Source: Patescibacteria group bacterium | GTDB lineage: Bacteria > Patescibacteriota > Patescibacteriia > JAHIZJ01 | Length of the DNA stretch: 64,000 nt | Direction of reading: 5' to 3' | Assembly (NCBI GenBank): GCA_041650335.1 | Contig: JBAZLK010000001.1 | Coordinates: 36,940 to 100,939 of the forward strand | Part shown: positions 32,314-44,674 of the stretch, piece after piece | Numbering within the stretch: position 1 is the stretch's first letter | Layout of the letters: every line of letters begins with the position of its first letter | Notes under the pieces: model-generated | Told to the model about the DNA's origin: nothing | The model's database searches: none | The model's input: only the letters and a program-made list of their open reading frames with translations | Program-made: the position numbers and the translations under genes

Positions 32314-32381
32314 CATTGCGGGTATACAAAACCGCTTTCGATGAGAAAGTGGTTTTGTCATTATGGTTCAGTTGTTTTGCC

Positions 32382-33194
32382 CTAGAAGAGATCAAATGAT
32401 TCTTCGTTTGTTTGATGACGATTTTCCCTCTCTTGAGCACCAATGTCCCAGTCGAGATTCTCGCGTAATAGTTTGATATCTCGATTCTCTAAGTCCTGTA
32501 AGAAAGAATCTAACGCGTCAAAGTTTACAATATCAATTAAAAAATATTTCATGATATCAGTTGAGTCCCCGCTGCTTTTAGGTTGCTTGTATGAATAATC
32601 AATTTCAAGTTGGAATGGTTCGGTAATGGGAGCATGTCCCGAACTCGCATCACGCTTATGCAGGTTTTGTAGCGAATCAGTAATTATGAGAGGAAAATCA
32701 ACATGATAGGAGGAGGGGATGTTTCTCCCGTTACTAAAGAAAATAAGACCGTTGAGACATTGGTTCATCGCCTCGAAAACGTCATCACGGTTGCCGCTTT
32801 TTGCCGCTATTTTAGCAACGGGGACATTATCCACGTAATGATGCTTTGCTAAACCCTGATCCTGAGTAACATAATAATCCGGCTTATCGTTTAAAATGCT
32901 ATTATCCTTTGCCAATTCCGTAGCGGACTTCATATTCTTTTGTCTGAACCAAAAAACTACGGGATCCTTTATATGTTTACATTCAATAAATAGCCTGACG
33001 GCAAATACCTCGTTCCTAACTTTATACTTTTTCGTTGCGATAATATCAATTTCTCTAGGCTTCCCAGTCGCCGGATCGTTATAGTACGGACTGATAGTTG
33101 CCTCCCATTCGTGACTATGTAGAAAATCGGCGACTTTAAATTGCAAGTCGTTTCCACTATTATCAATTATTTCTTGGAATTTATCCTTAGTCAT
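32382..33194 (-). CDS. PD-(D/E)xK nuclease-family protein
   Basis: EIDIIATKK ... RLFIECKH matches the D...ExK core. Confidence 0.55.
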   Translation of the reverse strand: MTKDKFQEIIDNSGNDLQFKVADFLHSHEWEATISPYYNDPATGKPREIDIIATKKYKVRNEVFAVRLFIECKHIKDPVVFWFRQKNMKSATELAKDNSILNDKPDYYVTQDQGLAKHHYVDNVPVAKIAAKSGNRDDVFEAMNQCLNGLIFFSNGRNIPSSYHVDFPLIITDSLQNLHKRDASSGHAPITEPFQLEIDYSYKQPKSSGDSTDIMKYFLIDIVNFDALDSFLQDLENRDIKLLRENLDWDIGAQERENRHQTNEESFDLF

Positions 33195-33206
33195 ATACGG
33201 ATTAGC

Positions 33207-34721
33207 TCAAATATAAAGAGAAACCAACTCTTTCCATACCGCGACCATCGCGTAGGTGTCGAATCCGCAGTACTCTTTCAGATTACTGGCGATAGTTTTG
33301 CTTTCCTCCGGAGTAGTCGCCGGAGATACCATCTTCCACCATGCATCCGAGGCCTGTCCGCCTTCCTGAATAGCCAGATTCCCATATCGAAGGTCGGGCA
33401 TGAGGGCTGGCAGAACATATTTAATGGAATGACTTCCGAAGAATTTCGGATGAACGTAATGCTGTTTTTGGAATATTTCCATGAGGTCATAGATTCTCGC
33501 ATTCAGATCCTCAAGGAATTCTTGATGCTGAGGGTGTCGCGAAGCAAGCTCGCGATGAACTCCCATTTCGAAGCATTGATTCCATACTAATATCCGGCCC
33601 CCGTCTTGCACGTGTCGCTGGAGTGTAGCGATAACTTGCCCGGAAGGATCGCTTCGTTCTTCGTGGAGATACTCGTAATGCTTAAGCTCACCGTTTGGCG
33701 CATCAAGGACATGGAGCGACATCTGAAATGGAATCCGTTGGTACGGCTTGAAACCGTTGAATATCGGAATAGCGGGTGCGAAGGTCTCGTAGTCGAGAAA
33801 ATACAGCGGAAATGTCAATGCGCCGAGCTTCTCCTTGATCGTTTTCAGGTCGATCATGGACTGTTGCGTTTGGTGCGCTCGTACTTGATTCCATTGGATA
33901 TCGGAGAGCTCGGTATCCTCCGGCACGTGGGCGATGTCGAAAATACGGCGTTCAACGAATGTACGGAGCTTCTTCTTGCTTACTCCGATACGGGCGATAT
34001 CGTGAACCGAGTACTCTGGAACGTCGGGGTTGGAGTATGAAAAGGTCGTACAGTGGTTATTGCGTCCGAGATAAATGCACTGGCATTCACCGGCTGGTTC
34101 TTTTTCTTGCAGAAGGTAATTCTTCGCGGCGGTCATTTCAGCCTCTATTTTCGGCAGTCGCGCACGAACCTTTTCGGTTTCGTCCTCGATCACAAGGAGC
34201 TGCTCGATATCGAGATCGCCCTGACGGACGTAGTCTTTGTTCAGATGGATGATATTATATTTCCCTGTTCGTATTTTGGCTCGATTCAATACGGATACTT
34301 GGAACGCAACATCATCGATGTGGTCGCGATCGGAACCCTCTTTGAGCGAGTTGGTACCTTTGACTTCGTATAAGTCCCAGCACTCGTTGGTTTCGTCATA
34401 AGCGAGAATATCGTTCCGAGCGATGAAACCGTCGACGATAAAGGTCGCCTGAAACAAGGTCGGGACCTTTGATGTCATGTGCCGGATCGTCTCTTGGCAA
34501 GCTTCGTCGCCGTAACCCACGATCTCAATTCCGTCGGGGAAAAGATTGCGAGCGATTGAATCAACTTCGTTTCCTTGTTCCAGAAGGTGTTTCTCGAACT
34601 CTGAAAGCTGATAATGCTGGTGTAAGTCTGGACGGTGAAGTTTCAGCCAGGTGTTTTTTGAGCACTGTAAAAATTCGAGGAAGACTGTTTTTGAGATGAG
34701 AATTTGTGGACTATTTATCAT
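33207..34721 (-). CDS. DUF2779-like protein: Cas4/RecB-like PD-(D/E)xK nuclease N-domain (Cys cluster) + DEDD-type 3'-5' exonuclease C-domain
   Basis: N-terminal FIVDGFIARNDILAYDE...LYEVKG with ECQCIYLGRNNHC. C-terminal YFLDYETF...RIPFQMSLHV. Confidence 0.65.
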   Translation of the reverse strand: MINSPQILISKTVFLEFLQCSKNTWLKLHRPDLHQHYQLSEFEKHLLEQGNEVDSIARNLFPDGIEIVGYGDEACQETIRHMTSKVPTLFQATFIVDGFIARNDILAYDETNECWDLYEVKGTNSLKEGSDRDHIDDVAFQVSVLNRAKIRTGKYNIIHLNKDYVRQGDLDIEQLLVIEDETEKVRARLPKIEAEMTAAKNYLLQEKEPAGECQCIYLGRNNHCTTFSYSNPDVPEYSVHDIARIGVSKKKLRTFVERRIFDIAHVPEDTELSDIQWNQVRAHQTQQSMIDLKTIKEKLGALTFPLYFLDYETFAPAIPIFNGFKPYQRIPFQMSLHVLDAPNGELKHYEYLHEERSDPSGQVIATLQRHVQDGGRILVWNQCFEMGVHRELASRHPQHQEFLEDLNARIYDLMEIFQKQHYVHPKFFGSHSIKYVLPALMPDLRYGNLAIQEGGQASDAWWKMVSPATTPEESKTIASNLKEYCGFDTYAMVAVWKELVSLYI

Positions 34722-35446
34722 AAAGCAACCTTAGGAGACGATGTTCTAAACTGGCTTATTCTTTCAATGTGCTGATTGCGAAACAATTTGAATTTATCTT
34801 TCCATTCAATATTAAGCAAATCCTTAAAACATAGTTCTATAATCTCTAGAATCAAGATATAACAATGAATTGTATATAGGATAGACCGATGAAGATTTGG
34901 TAAATCATTAATATCGGAGAAGATATTTTGATGATGATTCTTGTCAACTGTTATACGACTAAATATTGTCGATGAAAAATTTGAGTGTGTACCGTACTCT
35001 CGAGTTAAGTTATATGCGTCCTTGATTTTGTCGGTCTCTCGCCCCACCCATCTTGGTGAAAATGCCTTTTTAAAACCCTCGGTATCGTGCCGCTTCAACA
35101 GCCAGATTTTTGATTTTACTGGTGATATTCGTATGTGGTTTGCATAACCCGCGGCCTCAAGGGATCGACTAGTCATAGAATACGATTCTGCGATATGGGC
35201 TGAAAATATTAATTCCGAAGAACAGAAAAGACCTCTCAAGGAAATCCAGAATAACTCATATTCCACGAGTTTATTTTCTGGTACCGTAGACCCTAGCGCC
35301 TCTGTAAACGTGCAATACAAATCGATGAGCTGATTAACAGCACTAGTCTCGGCAGGAAAGTGCTGTGTCGTAGCTTTTACGTTTACGTTGTTTAATTCCG
35401 AGATTTTGGCAATATCAAGCGGCATTCTCGTCGAAATGTTATCCAT
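34718..35446 (-). CDS. hypothetical protein (AT-rich), translationally coupled to the DUF2779-like gene
   Basis: 4-nt overlap with the downstream start. No recognisable motif. Confidence 0.45.
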   Translation of the reverse strand: MDNISTRMPLDIAKISELNNVNVKATTQHFPAETSAVNQLIDLYCTFTEALGSTVPENKLVEYELFWISLRGLFCSSELIFSAHIAESYSMTSRSLEAAGYANHIRISPVKSKIWLLKRHDTEGFKKAFSPRWVGRETDKIKDAYNLTREYGTHSNFSSTIFSRITVDKNHHQNIFSDINDLPNLHRSILYTIHCYILILEIIELCFKDLLNIEWKDKFKLFRNQHIERISQFRTSSPKVAL

Positions 35447-35463
35447 TTTTTAATACTTATGTA

Positions 35464-37758
35464 TTATGCGATGGTATGCCACCCCGTCCAATCACCCTTG
35501 AGCGTCGCGTCCCAGCGATATTTAGGTTGGCCGTTGAGATACCACGTTTTTCCGCGTTGAATCACAATGCCGCTTGAAACATCCTTCCGTTTGAGTGAAG
35601 TAGTATAGGTCTGCAATGCTTCGGCCTTCGCCTTTGTATAGGTCGAGCCCTCACGGTCGTGCTCATCTTTCGTTTCAAAAATGCCTATCCGACCATCTTT
35701 GTATTGGACAATATAATCAGGATAGAACGTGTGAACCCCGTCAATATATTCGTATCTGACCCCGAAGAATTCCTTCGATCCTTCACCGTTCTTCCACCAC
35801 CATAAAACAGTTGATTGTTGATCAATATACTCTTCAAAGTGCCGCTCGGGATCAGAACGTTCTTTGTCTAACAGGCATTTATCATAAGCATACCGCTTAG
35901 CCATAAATGGCTCGACTGTATACTGGTTGAAGTATTGTGGCTCCGGAAGTTCATATGGATCTAAGCGCTCACTGGCTGCTGTGCGTTCCCGTACTTCGGC
36001 ATCCCGGACGTGCTTGTAGGCAGCGATGGCTTCAGTCAGAATGCGATCGAATATGGCTCGGTTCTTTGGATGCGTCACGATCTTTTGGACCATCAGCAGT
36101 TCCTCTTTCCAATCGGCGCTTCCGAACGCGTCTTTAAACCATAGGTAAATAGATGATTTGACCGCTGGTACTGATCGCTTGACGTTTGTGAATGATCCGA
36201 GTCGGTGACGGATAAATTCTTCAAACTCGGCTAGAACTTGATTCGATGATTTTTCTAATTGAACCGTTGCCGATGGATCAATTCGACCTACCAGTTCGTC
36301 AAAGGTTTTTGTTTTCAGGGTAGTATCAGCAATCAGCTCTTCTTGGATTGTTTTCAGATTCATGAGCATTTGCCTGCTTGCCGCAACGATGTTTTCACGT
36401 TTACTCTTGGCTAGTTTAAGGATGCGGTTGGCAGTTGCGGCAAAGACCGGCGTGAAACTTGACGCCACATCTCCGTAGTCAGCGCGGGAAATATAGAACG
36501 AGCGCAAACGGATCGGCTTATACGCCTTTATCCTATGAACCGGGATGTCGACGATGATATTCGGATTGTATTCTTCGTGTTTGATGGTGAAGTCTAGCTG
36601 GTTCGTGAAGACGTATCCTTTGTTGAGGATTTCATTTTCATAGTGCTTCTGTTCCGGCATTCGGAGAATTCGACCGACGGTCTGTATCTCGAATACTTCA
36701 TTACCAGGTTTGCGAAACTTCACGAGGATTTGTGCGCGGGGGCAGTCCCAGCCAGTATCGATTGCTTGCTTGAAAATAAGAAATTCAACTTCGTTCTCCG
36801 GATCGGCAATGTCGTCAATCGTCTCGGTCTTTTGTTCTGACAACCAAATAGCCAGTTTGCTCACCGGAACACCTTTACTCTTCAGGAATCCTAATGCAAA
36901 CTGTTTGACGTCTTCTCCAGCTTCAGAGGCCGGAATCTGAATCAGAACGAGTGGGTTAACGCTTGATCCGACTTCTCGATATGCTTTAGCGAGATCCTGA
37001 CGTTTCTTCCAAGCCACTTCGAGAACAAGTTGCTGTGAATCTTTGGCGGAACGGGAGAGAGATTCAAGGTTTTCGTTGATAACGATTTCCTTCTTAATAA
37101 TACCTTCACGGATAACATCATACGGATCGACTTCAACCCACTCTGCCTGATGACGGGACGTGTCGCTCGCAGTGACAGTTGTTTTAGGAGTGGCGCTGAC
37201 TTCAATAGCAACATCGGCTTGAATTAAATCACGCAACTCTGTTGTCCGTTCTGCCCCAGCACCAACATGGCTCTCGTCAATGACGAGGATCAGCGCCCGT
37301 TTCTTACGGGTTGCTTCGAGGACTTCAAGGAAGTTCACTTTTTCACCCTCACGCATGAGCGTGTTCTTCCATTCACCGGTAGCCCGATCTCGTGTCCGTA
37401 ATTTTTCCCAATTAGCTACCACAACTTCGTTACGGGCGATAATTGTTCGGCTTCCGCCGAATTCCTCTTCAATCAGGCTGACTTTCGGCGCACCGCCAAA
37501 ATACGACTCTAAGCTATGCTTGCTTTGCAGATGCAGATCGCCTTTGCCAATCGAGACCCAGAGATAACAGAAATCATCCTCGGGTAGCTGGCGGCTAATC
37601 TCCTGAATGGCTTTTGCCATCATTAATGTTTTACCGCTACCAGTTGGGGCTTTAAAAACGCATATCTCACCCCGTCCTTCATGTATAAGCAGGGATCGCA
37701 CCGCAGTGACGATTTCGTCGACCGCTTTTTGTTGGTAGTCCTTAAGTACCCAGTTCAT
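35464..37758 (-). CDS. res: Type III restriction enzyme Res subunit (SF2 helicase + endonuclease)
   Basis: APTGSGKT and LVIDESH motifs, plus a C-terminal FETKDE nuclease motif. It overlaps mod by 17 nt. Confidence 0.85.
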   Translation of the reverse strand: MNWVLKDYQQKAVDEIVTAVRSLLIHEGRGEICVFKAPTGSGKTLMMAKAIQEISRQLPEDDFCYLWVSIGKGDLHLQSKHSLESYFGGAPKVSLIEEEFGGSRTIIARNEVVVANWEKLRTRDRATGEWKNTLMREGEKVNFLEVLEATRKKRALILVIDESHVGAGAERTTELRDLIQADVAIEVSATPKTTVTASDTSRHQAEWVEVDPYDVIREGIIKKEIVINENLESLSRSAKDSQQLVLEVAWKKRQDLAKAYREVGSSVNPLVLIQIPASEAGEDVKQFALGFLKSKGVPVSKLAIWLSEQKTETIDDIADPENEVEFLIFKQAIDTGWDCPRAQILVKFRKPGNEVFEIQTVGRILRMPEQKHYENEILNKGYVFTNQLDFTIKHEEYNPNIIVDIPVHRIKAYKPIRLRSFYISRADYGDVASSFTPVFAATANRILKLAKSKRENIVAASRQMLMNLKTIQEELIADTTLKTKTFDELVGRIDPSATVQLEKSSNQVLAEFEEFIRHRLGSFTNVKRSVPAVKSSIYLWFKDAFGSADWKEELLMVQKIVTHPKNRAIFDRILTEAIAAYKHVRDAEVRERTAASERLDPYELPEPQYFNQYTVEPFMAKRYAYDKCLLDKERSDPERHFEEYIDQQSTVLWWWKNGEGSKEFFGVRYEYIDGVHTFYPDYIVQYKDGRIGIFETKDEHDREGSTYTKAKAEALQTYTTSLKRKDVSSGIVIQRGKTWYLNGQPKYRWDATLKGDWTGWHTIA

Positions 37759-39475
37759 GGATTTCTTGGTAGATATCTAAAATAGGCTGTGGAATCGGCT
37801 CAAGACGAATATTTTGCCAGTAGTCGAATTCGTGCTGATCAAGACCAAGCGGATCAAGGGTGAAGCAGTAGAGGATCTTGTCACCCGTGAAGCGGTCGAA
37901 TTCTTTCTTCAAAGCAGATAAACCTGATCGGTCGAGCGCGTAATACACGCCCATAATACGTTGACCTTGGGTAAATGTCCGAAACTGCGTCGTCTCCTTC
38001 TTCAGGTCGTAGATACCTTCGCGGACGCTGAGCATTTCCGTACACTCGTTTGTAATGCGAACCTTGATCTCGTCACGGTTAATTGATTTCTTCACGAATG
38101 CAGTTTTGAAATAGCGTAGGTTACCGCCGAAACCGGCCACCTTTTCGCCATTGCCATTCTTTTTATATCCCTTTATTACTTTTTCAATGCGTGGATAGCA
38201 AATGTCCGTTGCTATATTATTTTCGTTATTGGTAGAAAGAATAAATTGGCGGTTACCACCATCTTTTTTATTCAACTGTAGAACGGCGTGGCCGGTCGTA
38301 CCCGAACCTGCAAAAAAGTCTAAAACCACAGCATTTTTATTGCCATTTGCTGCCGCAGTTATACAATCAATTACTGCATATAGAGATTTTGGATATGCAA
38401 AGGAACCTCGCTCAATAATTTGGTTAAGTAATTGCGTGCCGTAGTTATTGGCTGAGTATTTGCTATCTGTCCAGACGGTTTTGTAATTGAACCGGTTCTT
38501 GGTGCGTTTGATATCCCAGACACCCCTTCTTTTTAAAAGAATAGCCTGTAGCTCGTCCCTTATGCTCTCAACAGTATGTCGGGCGAAACGCCACTTCCTC
38601 TCAATTCCCTGTGGATCAATTGGATACACTTCGATAACGCCGTCCCTTCTTTTAAGATTTACTGACCTCGGGTGATAACTATCCTTACAAACTTCACCGA
38701 AGCCAACGATTTTACCGTTCTTCACAAGTACGGGGTAGAAACAATTTGCGCCGGCGGTTCTTAATGACTCATCACCTGTTACATCCCTAAAATTACGAAT
38801 GTCTTCGTTGTCTACTTCACGTGTTTGAAGCCCGATATATCGACCTGGTTTTGGATAAATAAAGTAAGCGAATTCGTGAGTATAAGAGAAATTATCCCCC
38901 TGTATGCCCGCAGGATTGTGTACGATTGTTATGCAGGTTATTTCTCGATCAGCAAACAGTTCTTTTAACAACAACCCGAGTGGTTCTTGTTCATTATGAT
39001 CAATTGTACAAATAAGGACGCCTTTTTCAGAAAGCAAGTTCTTTGCTAATCTAAGTCGCTTGCTCATGAAGCTTAGCCACTTGCTATGTCGCCAAGTATC
39101 ATTGTCGTCAACAAAGTTATTGTTGTATTTCCAATCCCGAGAACCAGTATTGTATGGCGGATCAATATAAATCACATCAACTTTCCTTTGGTGTGTATAC
39201 TGCAAAACCGACAACGCGTGGTAGTTGTCGCCTTCGATCAGTAAGTTGACTGGTTTCTCTGGATCGGTTTCGATCGCCCGACCTTTTACTTCTTTGAGAA
39301 CCGGGTAGGCGTTCTCGGCGTCCTGCTCGAATTTTTCTTTTGTGCGCTCTTCATCCCAAATAAGTCCGTACTTTTTTCGGGACTCAAGTTTCTCTATAGT
39401 CTTGAGTAATTCTTCCTTGCTGAGTTTTGAGTAATCCTTTGCCACAAATTTTGTTAATGAGATAACTTTCGGCAA
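37742..39475 (-). CDS. mod: Type III restriction-modification Mod subunit (N6-adenine methyltransferase)
   Basis: Motif IV DVIYIDPPYNTG lies upstream of motif I DFFAGSGTTGHAV. Confidence 0.85.
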   Translation of the reverse strand: MPKVISLTKFVAKDYSKLSKEELLKTIEKLESRKKYGLIWDEERTKEKFEQDAENAYPVLKEVKGRAIETDPEKPVNLLIEGDNYHALSVLQYTHQRKVDVIYIDPPYNTGSRDWKYNNNFVDDNDTWRHSKWLSFMSKRLRLAKNLLSEKGVLICTIDHNEQEPLGLLLKELFADREITCITIVHNPAGIQGDNFSYTHEFAYFIYPKPGRYIGLQTREVDNEDIRNFRDVTGDESLRTAGANCFYPVLVKNGKIVGFGEVCKDSYHPRSVNLKRRDGVIEVYPIDPQGIERKWRFARHTVESIRDELQAILLKRRGVWDIKRTKNRFNYKTVWTDSKYSANNYGTQLLNQIIERGSFAYPKSLYAVIDCITAAANGNKNAVVLDFFAGSGTTGHAVLQLNKKDGGNRQFILSTNNENNIATDICYPRIEKVIKGYKKNGNGEKVAGFGGNLRYFKTAFVKKSINRDEIKVRITNECTEMLSVREGIYDLKKETTQFRTFTQGQRIMGVYYALDRSGLSALKKEFDRFTGDKILYCFTLDPLGLDQHEFDYWQNIRLEPIPQPILDIYQEIHELGT

Positions 39476-39561: not shown

Positions 39562-41925
39562 TTATTTGTCTAATTCGTAAACATATACTGAATTATCAGC
39601 AAGCTCACGAAAAGTGAAAGGGTATTGGTGTGGTAGTACAAAGTTTTGTCTCGTTTTTTTATAATCTATGTACTCATCCCACCAAGGTTCAAGTTCATGT
39701 GCCGTAAGAAGAATGGGTTTTATCCCTTTTTTAACAAGTTTTTTAAAGCGGTTAATTTCACCACTGGTAAACGCTTTCTTGGTTGTCGAAAATACAAGAT
39801 GGCAAGTTAATCCGCTATTTTGTAATAACCCTCTTGTGGTCAGTAGATTATCTATCTTTTTTGCAGTAATTTGATGACCAGTTTTGCATTCGCCAATCAA
39901 TACCTCATTATCATCTTTGCCTAATCTTTGGCTTAAATTTAGAATCGTTAAATCGGACTCAAAAGCCTCCTTTTTCCCATTGCTTGTCAGAGATAAGTCA
40001 AGCCCCGTGGAATAAAGAAAGTCATTCCCCGAATGCATTTTGTTTGTGAGAAACTGTAAAGTCAGGATTACGGGTATTGCACCTTGTTGCTTGTCACTTT
40101 TACCCATTAGCCCGCTAAGTCGATAGTGTAGTCGCAAGCCATCAACTTGTTTCCCATCGATTTTGATTGGATCAATAACCTCGACAAACTTACTAATCTC
40201 CGAACAATAATCACATAGATATCTATCACTTACATCCTTAAGATTTAGCCAATTTTTTAAGCCGCACTTAGGGCAACGAACCTCAACACCAACTTGAAGT
40301 AAATTGTGTTCAACCATCTCATCAAACACATCACTAGGCGTAATGGGCGTTTTTCCTTTTAGGCCAAATGCGTTCTCGAATTTTTTGAAGGTCTCTTCGT
40401 TTTCATTCTTATCTCGAATAGCTTTCAATACCTCATACTTTAGTTTTTGATGTAAAGGATGCGTCTCCTCAATAAATTTTCTTACACCGGTGATTTTGAA
40501 GATTCGAGCAGACCCCATTAATCCTTGCATTAACGAAACGACCCTCTCAGCAACTAAACCTGGTACACTTTTACTCGCAATAATTGATGCTCGTTCGAAA
40601 ACCTTTGTAATGATGTCATTCTTTGAAATTAGACCAATCCGTATCGTGTCGTCATCAATGTCTGTGATTAGGCTAACAGAAGTGCCTAAGGCCCCCCTTG
40701 TGACCCTTAAACCATGTGGGTCAAAAATTGTTTCTCTCGCATACCATTCGTTGAGGTCAGGAAGAGTAGGTAGGCTGAGAGTAAAACCATCGTCCTCCGT
40801 GCTCATTGGAGGATGCACTGATACCCCAAAACACTGATGTAAAAATCTACTATTATCGTGTTTTGCGAAAGGTTTATCTGATAATTGAATATTTAAACTT
40901 GGTTTTCCATATCTTTGGTTTAAGCCCGCAATAGTGGTAGTAGAACTAAGAATGTTATATCCGGGGACAATGTTTAATCCATTCCAAGAGATAGTGGAGA
41001 CTTGGGCGTATGCGAATGGTTTATCTTTGGCGGCAATCAAGTCGGCAATAGTTTTTACTTCTGACTCATTCTGTTTGCTGCCTGAATACCAAATAAGAAA
41101 TGAATGACGGTATCCAGTCGTTGGTTTCTTGATTCTACTCAAATGCTCCTTAATATATGGGAGGAAACGTCTAACATTTGATTTCGGAAGAAAAGTTATG
41201 TAACTGCCGGCTGCGCGTATATTCCAAAAATTTAATAGGTCTATAAAGCTTTTACTATCGCCAATATAAACACCCGCATCATGCCTATTTCCACCATATG
41301 AACGTATTTCCTGTTCAGTAAGCGCGAGCGGAGTAACGGTTGATGCGAGTTTTTTTGGGACTGGTCGACGACCGGTCAGTGTAATTTCTTTTGCCTTAAG
41401 TGCTTTTTGAAAATTATGATGGTATTTATACGCTAATTGCTTCTTTGGATACTCACCAAAAAGTAACGGTAAAAGATCTTTGTCAGCATCTTTATTGGAC
41501 CAAGATATTAATGTGCAATTACTATCATCAGTTTTTGAAAATTTAAAATTCGTGTCCCACATCTTTCTGAGAATATGACTGACATCCAGAACATTCACAT
41601 GCTTTTTCTTTCGATTCATGGAGTCTTCGGATAAAAGCAGTTCTGAGTTGTAAGAGGACGGAAGTCTTGCCCAAGAGTATTTTTCTAAGAATTTATTTAT
41701 TTCCGGTGTTTTGGAGATCGGTATTAATGCGTCGACTTGAAATAATTTTACTAGCGCGTGATCAAGACCCTCTTTTGATCCCACGGGAATAAGTGGGTTG
41801 TAAATACCGCCCCACAAAATGGTATTAAGCTTAACGGCCGTTGCTATATCTTGTTTATGACCATCACGAACACAAAACCCGAGTCTTAGTGGTCGATATT
41901 CAATCCTAACATCATCAAAAGTCAT
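39562..41925 (-). CDS. large hypothetical protein (787 aa): unassigned N-terminal ~550 aa, CxxC-X17-CxxC zinc ribbon, C-terminal PD-(D/E)xK-like motif
   Basis: CPKCGLKNWLNLKDVSDRYLCDYC zinc ribbon, then ESDLTIL...VLIGECKTG. The gene is AT-rich and has no SD. Confidence 0.55.
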   Translation of the reverse strand: MTFDDVRIEYRPLRLGFCVRDGHKQDIATAVKLNTILWGGIYNPLIPVGSKEGLDHALVKLFQVDALIPISKTPEINKFLEKYSWARLPSSYNSELLLSEDSMNRKKKHVNVLDVSHILRKMWDTNFKFSKTDDSNCTLISWSNKDADKDLLPLLFGEYPKKQLAYKYHHNFQKALKAKEITLTGRRPVPKKLASTVTPLALTEQEIRSYGGNRHDAGVYIGDSKSFIDLLNFWNIRAAGSYITFLPKSNVRRFLPYIKEHLSRIKKPTTGYRHSFLIWYSGSKQNESEVKTIADLIAAKDKPFAYAQVSTISWNGLNIVPGYNILSSTTTIAGLNQRYGKPSLNIQLSDKPFAKHDNSRFLHQCFGVSVHPPMSTEDDGFTLSLPTLPDLNEWYARETIFDPHGLRVTRGALGTSVSLITDIDDDTIRIGLISKNDIITKVFERASIIASKSVPGLVAERVVSLMQGLMGSARIFKITGVRKFIEETHPLHQKLKYEVLKAIRDKNENEETFKKFENAFGLKGKTPITPSDVFDEMVEHNLLQVGVEVRCPKCGLKNWLNLKDVSDRYLCDYCSEISKFVEVIDPIKIDGKQVDGLRLHYRLSGLMGKSDKQQGAIPVILTLQFLTNKMHSGNDFLYSTGLDLSLTSNGKKEAFESDLTILNLSQRLGKDDNEVLIGECKTGHQITAKKIDNLLTTRGLLQNSGLTCHLVFSTTKKAFTSGEINRFKKLVKKGIKPILLTAHELEPWWDEYIDYKKTRQNFVLPHQYPFTFRELADNSVYVYELDK

Positions 41926-41937
41926 AAAGGATATAGG

Positions 41938-42405
41938 TCACGAACACTTTATTATTCCATATAATCGAATTACTGCCTCATAAATCACCGTAAAAACCCC
42001 AGCAAAGATCGTTGCCCATACAATGATGATAAAAATACTATATCGATACTTAACCAATGATTTACATTCCAGATCGTGGATAACCTCACCCATCATCAGT
42101 CCATCAAGAGTAATTTCAATTCCGCCATCTACTTGTCGAGCAAACTTTTTCACTCGCAAATTACCCATTGCTGGATTAAGATTATTTAAATAATCAAGAT
42201 CGCTTGTTTTGAGAATGTTTATTTTGATGTATTCGCCGTTTAGGGGCGACTCAAGATGGTGATGGTTATCGACCGTCCACTTTAGTATTTGTTTCTCAAT
42301 TTCCCAAACTTGACGTCGTGTTTGATGAGTTTTCTTCTCTGAAAATTCATACTCTTGATAGAGTTCTAGCTTTCTAAAAAACTTTATTTGAATTGGTAGC
42401 TCCAT
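41938..42405 (-). CDS. small protein with C-terminal TM helix
   Basis: 155 aa with the C-terminal TM segment YSIFIIIVWATIFAGVFTVIY. It lies 12 nt upstream of the 787-aa gene. Confidence 0.45.
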   Translation of the reverse strand: MELPIQIKFFRKLELYQEYEFSEKKTHQTRRQVWEIEKQILKWTVDNHHHLESPLNGEYIKINILKTSDLDYLNNLNPAMGNLRVKKFARQVDGGIEITLDGLMMGEVIHDLECKSLVKYRYSIFIIIVWATIFAGVFTVIYEAVIRLYGIIKCS

Positions 42406-42423
42406 ATTCTAAATCATCAATAT

Positions 42424-42957
42424 TCAGTTGTTCTCTGCGACATGGACACGAAACCCACAGGTTCGACAAAGTCCGTTTGTGCTTGTAGCATTTTTGTTAT
42501 ACTCAAATCTAGCTGAGCCGCAATCTGTACACGTGGTAACGCCGTATCTCTCCTTTAGGCCTTTAATTATTGCGGCAACACTTTTACAATTTCGCGCATA
42601 TCGATCAACCATTTCTTTGTTACCCAAATACCCCTGAACCCATATATCTGTAGTAATCATACCCGCAGCAGCTTCTTTATATAGAATTTTTCCTTCCTTT
42701 AGAAGCTTTTCCCAATACTGTCTCGTGAAGCCATAATCATTTGAGAGGTCGGAGGATGTCATAAATCGGGCTTCTGGGCTTAGATATCCTTTGTCTCGCA
42801 TCAACTTAACCGACTCCGCTATTCCGTCTGCCAATTCTTTTTCTTTCTCATCCGTCGTGACTTCAGCAGGCATAGTAAGCATTAAAGATAAATTGCCACC
42901 GCTATTTATACCGGCGTGCCAAGAGTATTTACGTGTCTGAGTTCGTGTTTTAAGCAT
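42424..42957 (-). CDS. hypothetical protein with C-terminal zinc ribbon
   Basis: C-terminal CTDCGS...CRTCG zinc ribbon. First gene of the 3-gene module. Confidence 0.45.
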   Translation of the reverse strand: MLKTRTQTRKYSWHAGINSGGNLSLMLTMPAEVTTDEKEKELADGIAESVKLMRDKGYLSPEARFMTSSDLSNDYGFTRQYWEKLLKEGKILYKEAAAGMITTDIWVQGYLGNKEMVDRYARNCKSVAAIIKGLKERYGVTTCTDCGSARFEYNKNATSTNGLCRTCGFRVHVAENN

Positions 42958-43135
42958 AAAACAAGGATATCATTATTGGTTGCATTACGCAACCACCCAA
43001 ATAAACACAAAGATCAGATTGCATAAAGATATGGCTCGAAAGAATCATTGAGCGGTTTTTCAAGGCGTTTCAGGAAAAAGTTATCAACTCCACCCACTCT
43101 GGACGCCCCGCAGGGGTTGCGTCATCCCTTAGAGC

Positions 43136-44467
43136 ATGAATAACCATACCCAACAGGGAGAGGCCGACCAGGGGCAGGTTCTGGCCCCTCCCCCAATCAA
43201 GTATTGCCTCTATGCCCGCAAGAGTTCGGAGTCCGAGGAGAGACAAGTTCTGTCGATCGACTCCCAGATTAAAGAGATGCTTCAGATCGCCGACCGAGAG
43301 AAGCTCAATATCGTCGAGATGCGCCGGGAGAGCCATTCCGCCAAGGACACAGGCCAGCGTCCGGTATTCAACGAACTGATCAGTGATATCCGCCTGGGAA
43401 AGTTCAACGGTATCCTGACTTGGGCGCCGGACCGGCTCTCGCGTAACGCCGGTGACCTCGGCATGTTAGTCGACCTGATGGATCAAAAACTACTTCATGA
43501 AATTCGCACGTACGGACAGGTCTTTTCGAACTCGCCAAATGAGAAGTTTCTCTTGATGATTCTCGGTAGCCAAGCAAAGCTCGAAAACGACAACCGGGGC
43601 GTCAATGTGAAACGTGGATTGCGAACCCGTGTCGAAATGGGTCTCTGGCCGAACATGGCACCAATCGGGTATTTGAATCAAAACCGGCAGGATAAAAAGG
43701 GGCAATTACTCGTCGATCGGGTGCGAGCGCCGATCATCAAGCAAATGTTCGAGCGAGTCGCCTACGAACATCAAAGCGGCAGGAAAATCTACAATTGGCT
43801 GCGTCACGATCTGAATTTTCATACGCGGGGAAACAAACATCTCACCTTAAGTGGCGTCTACCGGATCCTGACCACCACGTTCTACTACGGCATGTATGAA
43901 TACCCGAGAGACAGCGGTAATTGGTACAAAGGCAAGCATGAGCCGATCATCACGCAGGAACTTTTCGATAAAGCCACGGAACAGCTTAAACGCGATCAGA
44001 TCGTTCGGGAAAACAAGGAATTCGCCTTTACCAAGTTGTTTACCTGCGGCAAGTGCGGTTCCGGCATCAGCGCTGAGGAGAAATATAAGGAGCATAAAGA
44101 CGGAACGGCCGCTCGGTACGTCTACTACGGCTGCACCAGAGCGCGTGATCGTGATTGCCGGAATACGTACATCCGGGAGGAAGAGCTTATCCAGCAGCTT
44201 CTCGGCATTCTCGATCAGGTGAACGTCAACGAGTTGGGCATGCGGTACAAGCTGGAAGAGGAAATCAAGCGGTTCAACAAATTCCAACACGTAGTCATGG
44301 GCACGAAAGCCGATAGCATATCGGAGGAAACCGAAGTGAACATTCGAAAGTACGCCAAATACCTCTTGAAAGAGGGAAGCGTTACCGAGAAACGCGAATT
44401 GTTGGCGAACCTGCGGAGCCGGTTGATCTACAAAGATAAGACGCTGACTTTAGTACGGGAAGGGTAA
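43136..44467 (+). CDS. large serine recombinase (integrase)
   Basis: Resolvase catalytic region YARKSSESEERQVLSIDSQ, a recombinase domain and a CGKCGS...YYGC zinc ribbon. Confidence 0.85.
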   Translation: MNNHTQQGEADQGQVLAPPPIKYCLYARKSSESEERQVLSIDSQIKEMLQIADREKLNIVEMRRESHSAKDTGQRPVFNELISDIRLGKFNGILTWAPDRLSRNAGDLGMLVDLMDQKLLHEIRTYGQVFSNSPNEKFLLMILGSQAKLENDNRGVNVKRGLRTRVEMGLWPNMAPIGYLNQNRQDKKGQLLVDRVRAPIIKQMFERVAYEHQSGRKIYNWLRHDLNFHTRGNKHLTLSGVYRILTTTFYYGMYEYPRDSGNWYKGKHEPIITQELFDKATEQLKRDQIVRENKEFAFTKLFTCGKCGSGISAEEKYKEHKDGTAARYVYYGCTRARDRDCRNTYIREEELIQQLLGILDQVNVNELGMRYKLEEEIKRFNKFQHVVMGTKADSISEETEVNIRKYAKYLLKEGSVTEKRELLANLRSRLIYKDKTLTLVREG

Positions 44468-44584
44468 AGGATTTCTAATCGTAGCAACCCCCCGCCGGGT
44501 TCTCCGGCAGGGGGTTGGGGTATTGCCAACACAAGCTTCTATTCTTTTTGAGCCACGTGGGTCGGCTCCGATAAAAGATTGTGT

Positions 44585-44674
44585 TGGCGGAGAGTGCAGG
44601 ATTCGAACCTGCGAGGGACCTTACGGTCCCATGGTTTAGCAAACCATTGCCTTAAGCCACTCGGCCAACTCTCC
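44585..44674 (-). tRNA. tRNA-Ser: tRNA-Ser (anticodon GCT), long variable arm
   Basis: The reverse complement is GGAGAGTTGGCCGAGTGG...ATGGT-TTGCTAA-ACCAT...GGTTCGAATCCTGCACTCTCCGCCA. Confidence 0.85.

What the first reader, a model, noticed from the sequence alone, without database searches (positions are those of the whole stretch)
39562..42957. Uncharacterised three-gene module in a defence array beside the serine integrase
Three co-directional, tightly spaced (12-18 nt), AT-rich genes on the minus strand. They encode a 177-aa protein with a C-terminal zinc ribbon, a 155-aa protein with one C-terminal TM helix, and a 787-aa protein. The 787-aa protein has no recognisable N-terminal ~550 aa, a CxxC-X17-CxxC zinc ribbon, and a C-terminal motif arranged like PD-(D/E)xK (ESDLTIL...LIGECKTG). 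The module lies directly upstream of a Type III Mod/Res pair and a DUF2779-like nuclease in the same orientation. It is bracketed by a large serine recombinase and phage-derived genes. That neighbourhood is typical for anti-phage systems, but the gene combination does not match any named system I can recall.
Basis: partly seen in the sequence, partly recalled or inferred. Interest (0 to 1): 0.8.

Follow-up and report, generated by a model that had tools for sequence, protein, structure and literature searches.

The report
Regulator-led defence cassette with unannotated nuclease
The three genes are real but are not a conserved trio: a small DNA-binding regulator that heads many different anti-phage systems in ultra-small (CPR) bacteria, a rare membrane protein, and one member of a large, unannotated family of stand-alone nucleases that probably cut invading DNA.

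Summary
All three ORFs, their 18 and 12 nt spacing, low GC and neighbours are as described. The trio is not a conserved unit.

**A (177 aa)** is a leader gene known so far only from CPR-type bacteria. In about 45 other loci it is followed closely by variable cargo. Annotated cargo is Shedu, HEPN-like, Type I RM, KAP NTPase, OLD/PARIS-like or HKD-Snf2; C-family proteins follow it in only two loci. A palindrome, GGTTGC-N5-G(A/C)AACC, lies 12-43 nt upstream of A in 30 of 40 loci and once in this window (42978-42994). I infer that A autoregulates, like a restriction-modification controller protein.

**B (155 aa)** has eight known homologues and varied neighbours.

Best reading: a regulator-led cassette whose payload is a single-protein, sensor-coupled DNA nuclease. 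No function has been tested.

The parts
42978..42994 (.). 17-bp palindrome GGTTGCGTAATGCAACC, the predicted operator of protein A. It lies 20 nt upstream of the A start codon and overlaps a -35-like element.
   Evidence: This is the only occurrence in the 64-kb window. The same motif, GGTTGC-N5-G[AC]AACC, lies 12-43 nt upstream of A in 30 of 40 non-redundant A loci, or 38 of 40 with a looser pattern. There are no strict matches in 575,778 background bases of those loci. In 1.55 Mb of other loci it occurs only upstream of A genes, plus one stray match.
42424..42957 (-). Protein A (177 aa): a predicted DNA-binding leader or controller protein with a central HTH-like segment (TRQYWEKLLKEGKILYKE) and a C-terminal four-cysteine zinc ribbon.
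   Evidence: 78 homologues were found; the sources that give an organism name mostly name CPR (Patescibacteria-group) bacteria, with one Acidobacteria MAG. The HTH-like core and the four cysteines are invariant. Pfam matches are only below threshold: Zn_Ribbon_Prim in 13 of 32 members and HTH_17 in 5 of 32. A is the first gene of variable defence cargo in about 45 loci.
41938..42405 (-). Protein B (155 aa): a small protein with a conserved N-terminus (MELPIQIKFFRKLELYQEY) and one C-terminal transmembrane helix. Its role is unknown.
   Evidence: Only 8 homologues were found among 5.8 billion protein clusters. It follows A in L146, lies beside Dcm/Vsr and an HNH_5 protein in L147, and lies beside an MTase-Mrr fusion, a NYN protein and a small HEPN-like protein in L148. 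A profile of B found nothing in any other locus.
40306..41925 (-). Protein C, residues 1-540: N-terminal region with no close structural match, the presumed sensor. It comprises alpha/beta domains at about 1-130, 137-215 and 217-310, a beta-rich domain at about 323-431 and a helical domain at about 435-540.
40204..40275 (-). Protein C, residues 551-574: four-cysteine zinc ribbon (CPKC-X16-CDYC).
   Evidence: All four cysteines are invariant in 78 full-length family members from many phyla.
39565..40128 (-). Protein C, residues 600-787: PD-(D/E)xK nuclease domain. The catalytic E656, D658, E679 and K681 are encoded at 39883-39960.
35464..39475 (-). Context: Type III restriction-modification pair, Mod (37742-39475) and Res (35464-37758). 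It lies 86 nt downstream of C on the same strand.
   Evidence: Mod hits Pfam N6_N4_Mtase and PADLOC MTase_III at 2.6e-70. Res hits ResIII and REase_III. A closely related Mod-Res pair (phmmer E 6e-185 and 5e-268) is followed after 4 nt by a C homologue in L032.
32382..35446 (-). Context: three further genes on the same strand. These are a 242-aa protein with no hits, a DUF2779 protein (33207-34721) and a 270-aa protein (32382-33194).
   Evidence: Family scans are. The 270-aa protein has a homologue lying between Mod and Res in L001 (33% identity, E 2e-48). A hairpin at 32326-32358 closes the array.
43136..44674 (.). Context: island border, made up of a large serine recombinase (43136-44467, + strand) and tRNA-Ser(gct) (44585-44674, - strand).
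   Evidence: The recombinase hits Resolvase, Recombinase and Zn_ribbon_recom. The tRNA was found by ARAGORN. Housekeeping genes (ClpB-like, HtpX, LemA) lie beyond the tRNA.

Best explanation
The region is a mosaic, regulator-led defence cassette inside an integrated island. It is not a dedicated three-protein machine.

**A is the controller.** It is a CPR-type HTH and zinc-ribbon protein. I infer that it binds the palindrome GGTTGC-N5-GCAACC, which overlaps its own promoter, and so sets the expression of whatever potentially toxic cargo lies downstream. This is the logic of controller (C) proteins and their C-boxes in restriction-modification systems, and of BrxR/CapW.

**C is the payload.** It belongs to a large, widespread, unannotated family of roughly 770-aa single-polypeptide enzymes. 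I infer that the N-terminal region, which has no close structural match, senses an infection cue or a non-self feature of DNA. The helical domain and zinc ribbon would then position DNA, and the C-terminal PD-(D/E)xK domain would cut it. C most likely works on its own, as Shedu, Mrr-type Type IV enzymes and END nucleases do. It often rides at the end of restriction-modification operons as a second layer of defence.

**B is a rare small membrane protein** of unknown role. The C family does not need it.

**Shown:** gene anatomy, family sizes, conservation, the nuclease fold, variable contexts, and conservation of the operator motif.

**Inferred:** DNA binding by A, autoregulation, the defence function of C, the sensor role of C's N-terminus, and DNA as the substrate.
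For: **C family**
- A profile search found 3,785 representatives at E <= 1e-3 and 993 at E <= 1e-30. More than 150 are full-length with E < 1e-149.
- 281 hits in the one-genome-per-species collection, spread over many phyla.
- Plasmid copies sit beside Abi, toxin-antitoxin and ATPase-protease genes.
- Architecture and motifs are constant across 78 members.
- The model is confident, with pLDDT 87 and pTM 0.83, and its nuclease domain matches known nucleases.

**C stands alone**
- Clustering the neighbours within four genes either side of C (75 loci) found no universal partner.
- The commonest neighbour families are DNA methyltransferases, ResIII, Methylase_S and HTH_17, with single cases of EcoRI, Tsp45I, McrBC and AbiEii.
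- RM-like genes make up 7.2% of genes within 3 positions of C, 3.8% at 4-6 positions and 1.6% beyond 6. They occur within 3 genes in 13 of 81 loci, and in 10 of the 41 closer relatives.
- C directly follows Type I or Type III RM genes in L001, L003, L004 and L032, and an HsdS-like specificity gene in L017.

**A as leader**
- In most of the ~45 loci with a called downstream gene, the co-directional cargo begins within about 20 nt of A or overlaps it (-47 to +17 nt); four have gaps of 76-176 nt.
- Cargo includes Shedu SduA (7 loci), Hypoth_Ymh/HEPN-like proteins (11 loci), HsdM, a KAP NTPase (PifA/QatA-like), HKD+Snf2, OLD/AriAB/GajA-like proteins, and C-family proteins in L006 and L011.
- The closest A homologue leads yet another cargo: a 341-aa protein with no Pfam hit, a DUF7380/EMARD_N protein, then a NERD protein.

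**Operator**
-, as set out under the parts.
Against: - Nothing has been tested experimentally. Defence is inferred from neighbourhood and fold only.
- Many C-family loci, especially the distant proteobacterial ones, have housekeeping neighbours such as FadB-like and sulfatase genes. Only 16% have an RM-like gene within 3 genes.
- The N-terminal region has no informative structural match, so calling it a sensor is a guess.
- A's HTH reaches only sub-threshold Pfam scores.
- In this window the -35-like hexamer is weak (TTGCGT), and the promoter scan did not call the site.
- The tight 12-18 nt spacing of A, B and C fits co-translation, so a functional link in this particular lineage is still possible.
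- A-C recurs in two other loci and A-B in one.
Confidence: 0.6

Rival explanations
1. A, B and C form a true three-component system. In this reading A senses or regulates, B acts at the membrane, C is the nuclease, and all three are required together.
For: - The three genes are co-directional, with 18 and 12 nt gaps and similar low GC.
- A precedes a C-family gene in L006 and L011.
- A precedes B in L146.
Against: - The triplet was found nowhere else.
- 79 of 81 C loci lack A, and all lack B.
- A leads many unrelated cargoes.
- B occurs with an HNH_5 protein, with Dcm/Vsr, and with a HEPN-like protein, in each case without C.
Confidence: 0.1
2. C is functionally tied to restriction-modification. 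It could be a modification-dependent (Type IV, Mrr-like) endonuclease. Alternatively it could be a PrrC-like back-up that fires when the adjacent Type I or Type III enzyme is inhibited by phage anti-restriction proteins.
For: - C directly follows Type III or Type I RM genes in several loci, including L032, whose Mod and Res are close relatives of the window's pair.
- RM-like genes are about 4.5 times more frequent next to C than more than 6 genes away.
- From general knowledge, Type IV enzymes and PrrC sit beside Type I systems in E. coli.
Against: - 84% of loci have no RM-like gene within 3 genes of C.
- There is no Mrr_cat or other Pfam hit.
- None of the PDB matches listed for the N-terminal model is a modified-base reader such as SRA, EVE or YTH.
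- A requirement for a partner would not fit the many isolated copies.
Confidence: 0.2
3. C is not an immune protein. It could be a mobile-element or DNA-repair nuclease that happens to lie in an island.
For: - Its distribution is patchy and it often sits near serine recombinases and HTH_17 genes.
- Some copies lie among housekeeping genes.
- No phage-defence model hits it.
Against: - It occupies the slot behind A, and wherever that slot could be annotated here it holds known defence genes.
- Its neighbourhoods are enriched for RM, Abi and toxin-antitoxin genes.
- It was not found in phage genomes or viral contigs.
- No terminal repeats or transposase-like features were seen.
Confidence: 0.1

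Closest known systems
Shedu (SduA): single-protein immune nuclease with variable N-terminal sensor domains and a C-terminal PD-(D/E)xK (DUF4263) domain
   Same: Both have the logic of one polypeptide carrying an N-terminal regulatory or sensor region and a C-terminal PD-(D/E)xK nuclease. Both are stand-alone genes in defence islands. Shedu occupies the same A-led slot in 7 loci.
CRISPR ancillary nucleases Can1, Can2, Card1 and Cdn1 (a CARF sensor joined to a PD-(D/E)xK nuclease)
   Different: The N-terminal model alone gives no CARF hit. There is no CARF Pfam match. No cas or cyclase gene was noted among the annotated genes of the window or among the commonest Pfam families of C's neighbours. 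The similarity is therefore confined to the nuclease domain.
Type IV and solitary Type IIS-like restriction enzymes (Mrr; END nucleases, bioRxiv 10.1101/2025.03.31.646159)
   Same: These are solitary endonucleases in which a recognition domain is fused to a restriction-type cleavage domain. They are often found beside Type I or Type III RM loci. The nuclease core resembles AF1548, FokI and BspD6I.
   Different: C has no Mrr_cat, iEndoIII or other reader domain detectable by sequence, and none of the listed fold matches is one. Dependence on DNA modification is untested.
Controller (C) proteins with C-boxes in restriction-modification systems, and BrxR/CapW regulators of defence islands (comparison for protein A)
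   Same: A is a small DNA-binding protein encoded first in the operon. A conserved palindrome overlaps its own promoter, and nuclease or defence genes lie immediately downstream.
   Different: A is not an XRE/HTH_3 protein and has no WYL domain. It has a weakly HTH_17-like motif and a C-terminal zinc ribbon. Nearly all homologues with an organism name come from CPR-type bacteria. DNA binding has not been tested.

Membership tests
PD-(D/E)xK nuclease superfamily (C, C-terminal domain) | Catalytic D...(D/E)xK motif on the core beta-strands | tested here: met
   D658 and E679 are invariant; E656 is D, and K681 is R, in 2 of 78 members each. They lie on predicted strands 651-663 and 674-681.
PD-(D/E)xK nuclease superfamily (C, C-terminal domain) | Restriction-endonuclease-like alpha/beta fold | tested here: met
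Shedu (SduA) | DUF4263 / SduA_C nuclease domain | tested here: not met
   No Pfam or PADLOC SduA hit for C or for 10 divergent relatives. hhalign against A-associated Shedu proteins gives a probability of 0.2%.
CARF-nuclease effectors (Can1, Can2, Card1, Cdn1) | N-terminal CARF domain that binds cyclic oligoadenylate | tested here: not met
CARF-nuclease effectors (Can1, Can2, Card1, Cdn1) | Association with Type III CRISPR-Cas or another cyclase | tested here: not met
   No cas or cyclase families appear among the annotated window genes or the commonest Pfam families of 150 scanned neighbours. This was not an exhaustive census.
Mrr-type Type IV restriction enzymes | Mrr_cat catalytic domain with an N-terminal winged-helix domain | tested here: inconclusive
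Mrr-type Type IV restriction enzymes | Cleavage dependent on DNA modification | not testable with these tools
   This needs in vitro or in vivo assays on modified and unmodified DNA.
Any named system in PADLOC-DB 2.0 (including PDC and HEC candidates) | A match of A, B or C to a system HMM | tested here: not met
   No hits at E <= 0.1 for A, B and C. No hits at E <= 0.01 for 10 divergent C relatives. Newer DefenseFinder models could not be searched.
Restriction-modification controller (C) proteins (for A) | A palindromic operator upstream of its own gene, overlapping the promoter, with the nuclease gene downstream | tested here: met
   GGTTGC-N5-G[AC]AACC is present in 30 of 40 A loci (38 of 40 with the looser pattern), 12-43 nt upstream of A. 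There are no strict matches in 576 kb of background. In many loci the left arm reads TTGCCA, lies 17 nt from a TATACT-like box, and that box lies 6-7 nt before the ATG.
Restriction-modification controller (C) proteins (for A) | XRE-type (HTH_3) helix-turn-helix fold and demonstrated DNA binding | tested here: not met
   No HTH_3 hit. Only sub-threshold HTH_17 matches in 5 of 32 members, and zinc-ribbon matches. Binding itself cannot be tested here.
BrxR/CapW defence regulators (for A) | wHTH-WYL-WCX architecture | tested here: not met
   No WYL or related Pfam hit in A or in 32 homologues.
Type III restriction-modification (neighbouring Mod and Res) | A Mod methyltransferase with a Res helicase-type subunit | tested here: met
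   PADLOC MTase_III at 2.6e-70 and REase_III at 5.5e-17. Pfam N6_N4_Mtase and ResIII.

The most novel reading that the evidence does not exclude
Protein A and its 17-bp operator mark a hypervariable defence slot across CPR (Patescibacteria-group) bacteria.

If so, every gene set found behind A is a candidate immune system. That includes the C family and several cargoes with no annotation: the 231-aa protein in L098, the 320-aa protein in L102, the 289-aa protein in L009 (the 300-aa gene behind it was not scanned), and in L149 a 341-aa protein with no Pfam hit followed by DUF7380/EMARD_N and NERD proteins.

C itself would then be the founding member of a new, phylum-spanning class of single-protein immune nucleases. 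Its conserved N-terminal pocket (WGGxxNPxIP, D65, D229, FWNxRA) would sense a signal not used by any known system.
Probability: 0.35. Interest if true: 0.78.

Novelty: new variant of a known kind. Interest (0 to 1): 0.62.

Why it matters
**A large blank in immune catalogues.** The C family has thousands of sequence clusters across bacteria and archaea and a confidently predicted fold. It still has no Pfam, NCBIfam or PADLOC entry. If it is an immune nuclease, it fills a sizeable gap, and its conserved N-terminal region would be a new kind of sensor.

**A handle for finding defence genes in CPR bacteria.** Very few defence systems are known in these organisms (stated in PMC12366544). The A leader gene and its conserved operator give a simple, sequence-searchable marker for them.

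**A design principle.** A controller-led, swappable defence cassette is an arrangement that could be tested experimentally.

Tried and rejected
- **CARF-sensor idea.** The full-length model's best hits were CARF nucleases. The N-terminal model alone gave no CARF hit, so the match comes from the nuclease domain.
- **Shedu membership.** Rejected by Pfam, PADLOC and hhalign.
- **Conservation of the triplet.** Searched through contexts of C, A and B homologues. Not found.
- **Apparent rarity of C.** The word-index search gave only 32 hits. The exhaustive profile search overturned this.
- **Effector swapping on the N-terminal module.** The seven short or odd representatives look like truncated or frameshifted ORFs, not new fusions.
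- **att repeats.** A search around the recombinase and tRNA-Ser found nothing convincing.
- **Phage or viral origin.** C and A have no match in phage genomes, IMG/VR contigs or BFVD structures.
- **E. coli homologue.** None found by blastn with the Enterobacteriaceae copy.
- **PDB sequence searches.** No hits for C. Only weak eIF5-type zinc-ribbon matches for A.
- **Literature.** Full-text searches turned up no description of either family. PMC12366544 reports Patescibacteria-restricted defence genes ldgA and ddgA, but no sequences were available to compare.
- **Not available.** The afdb50 fold library could not be searched.
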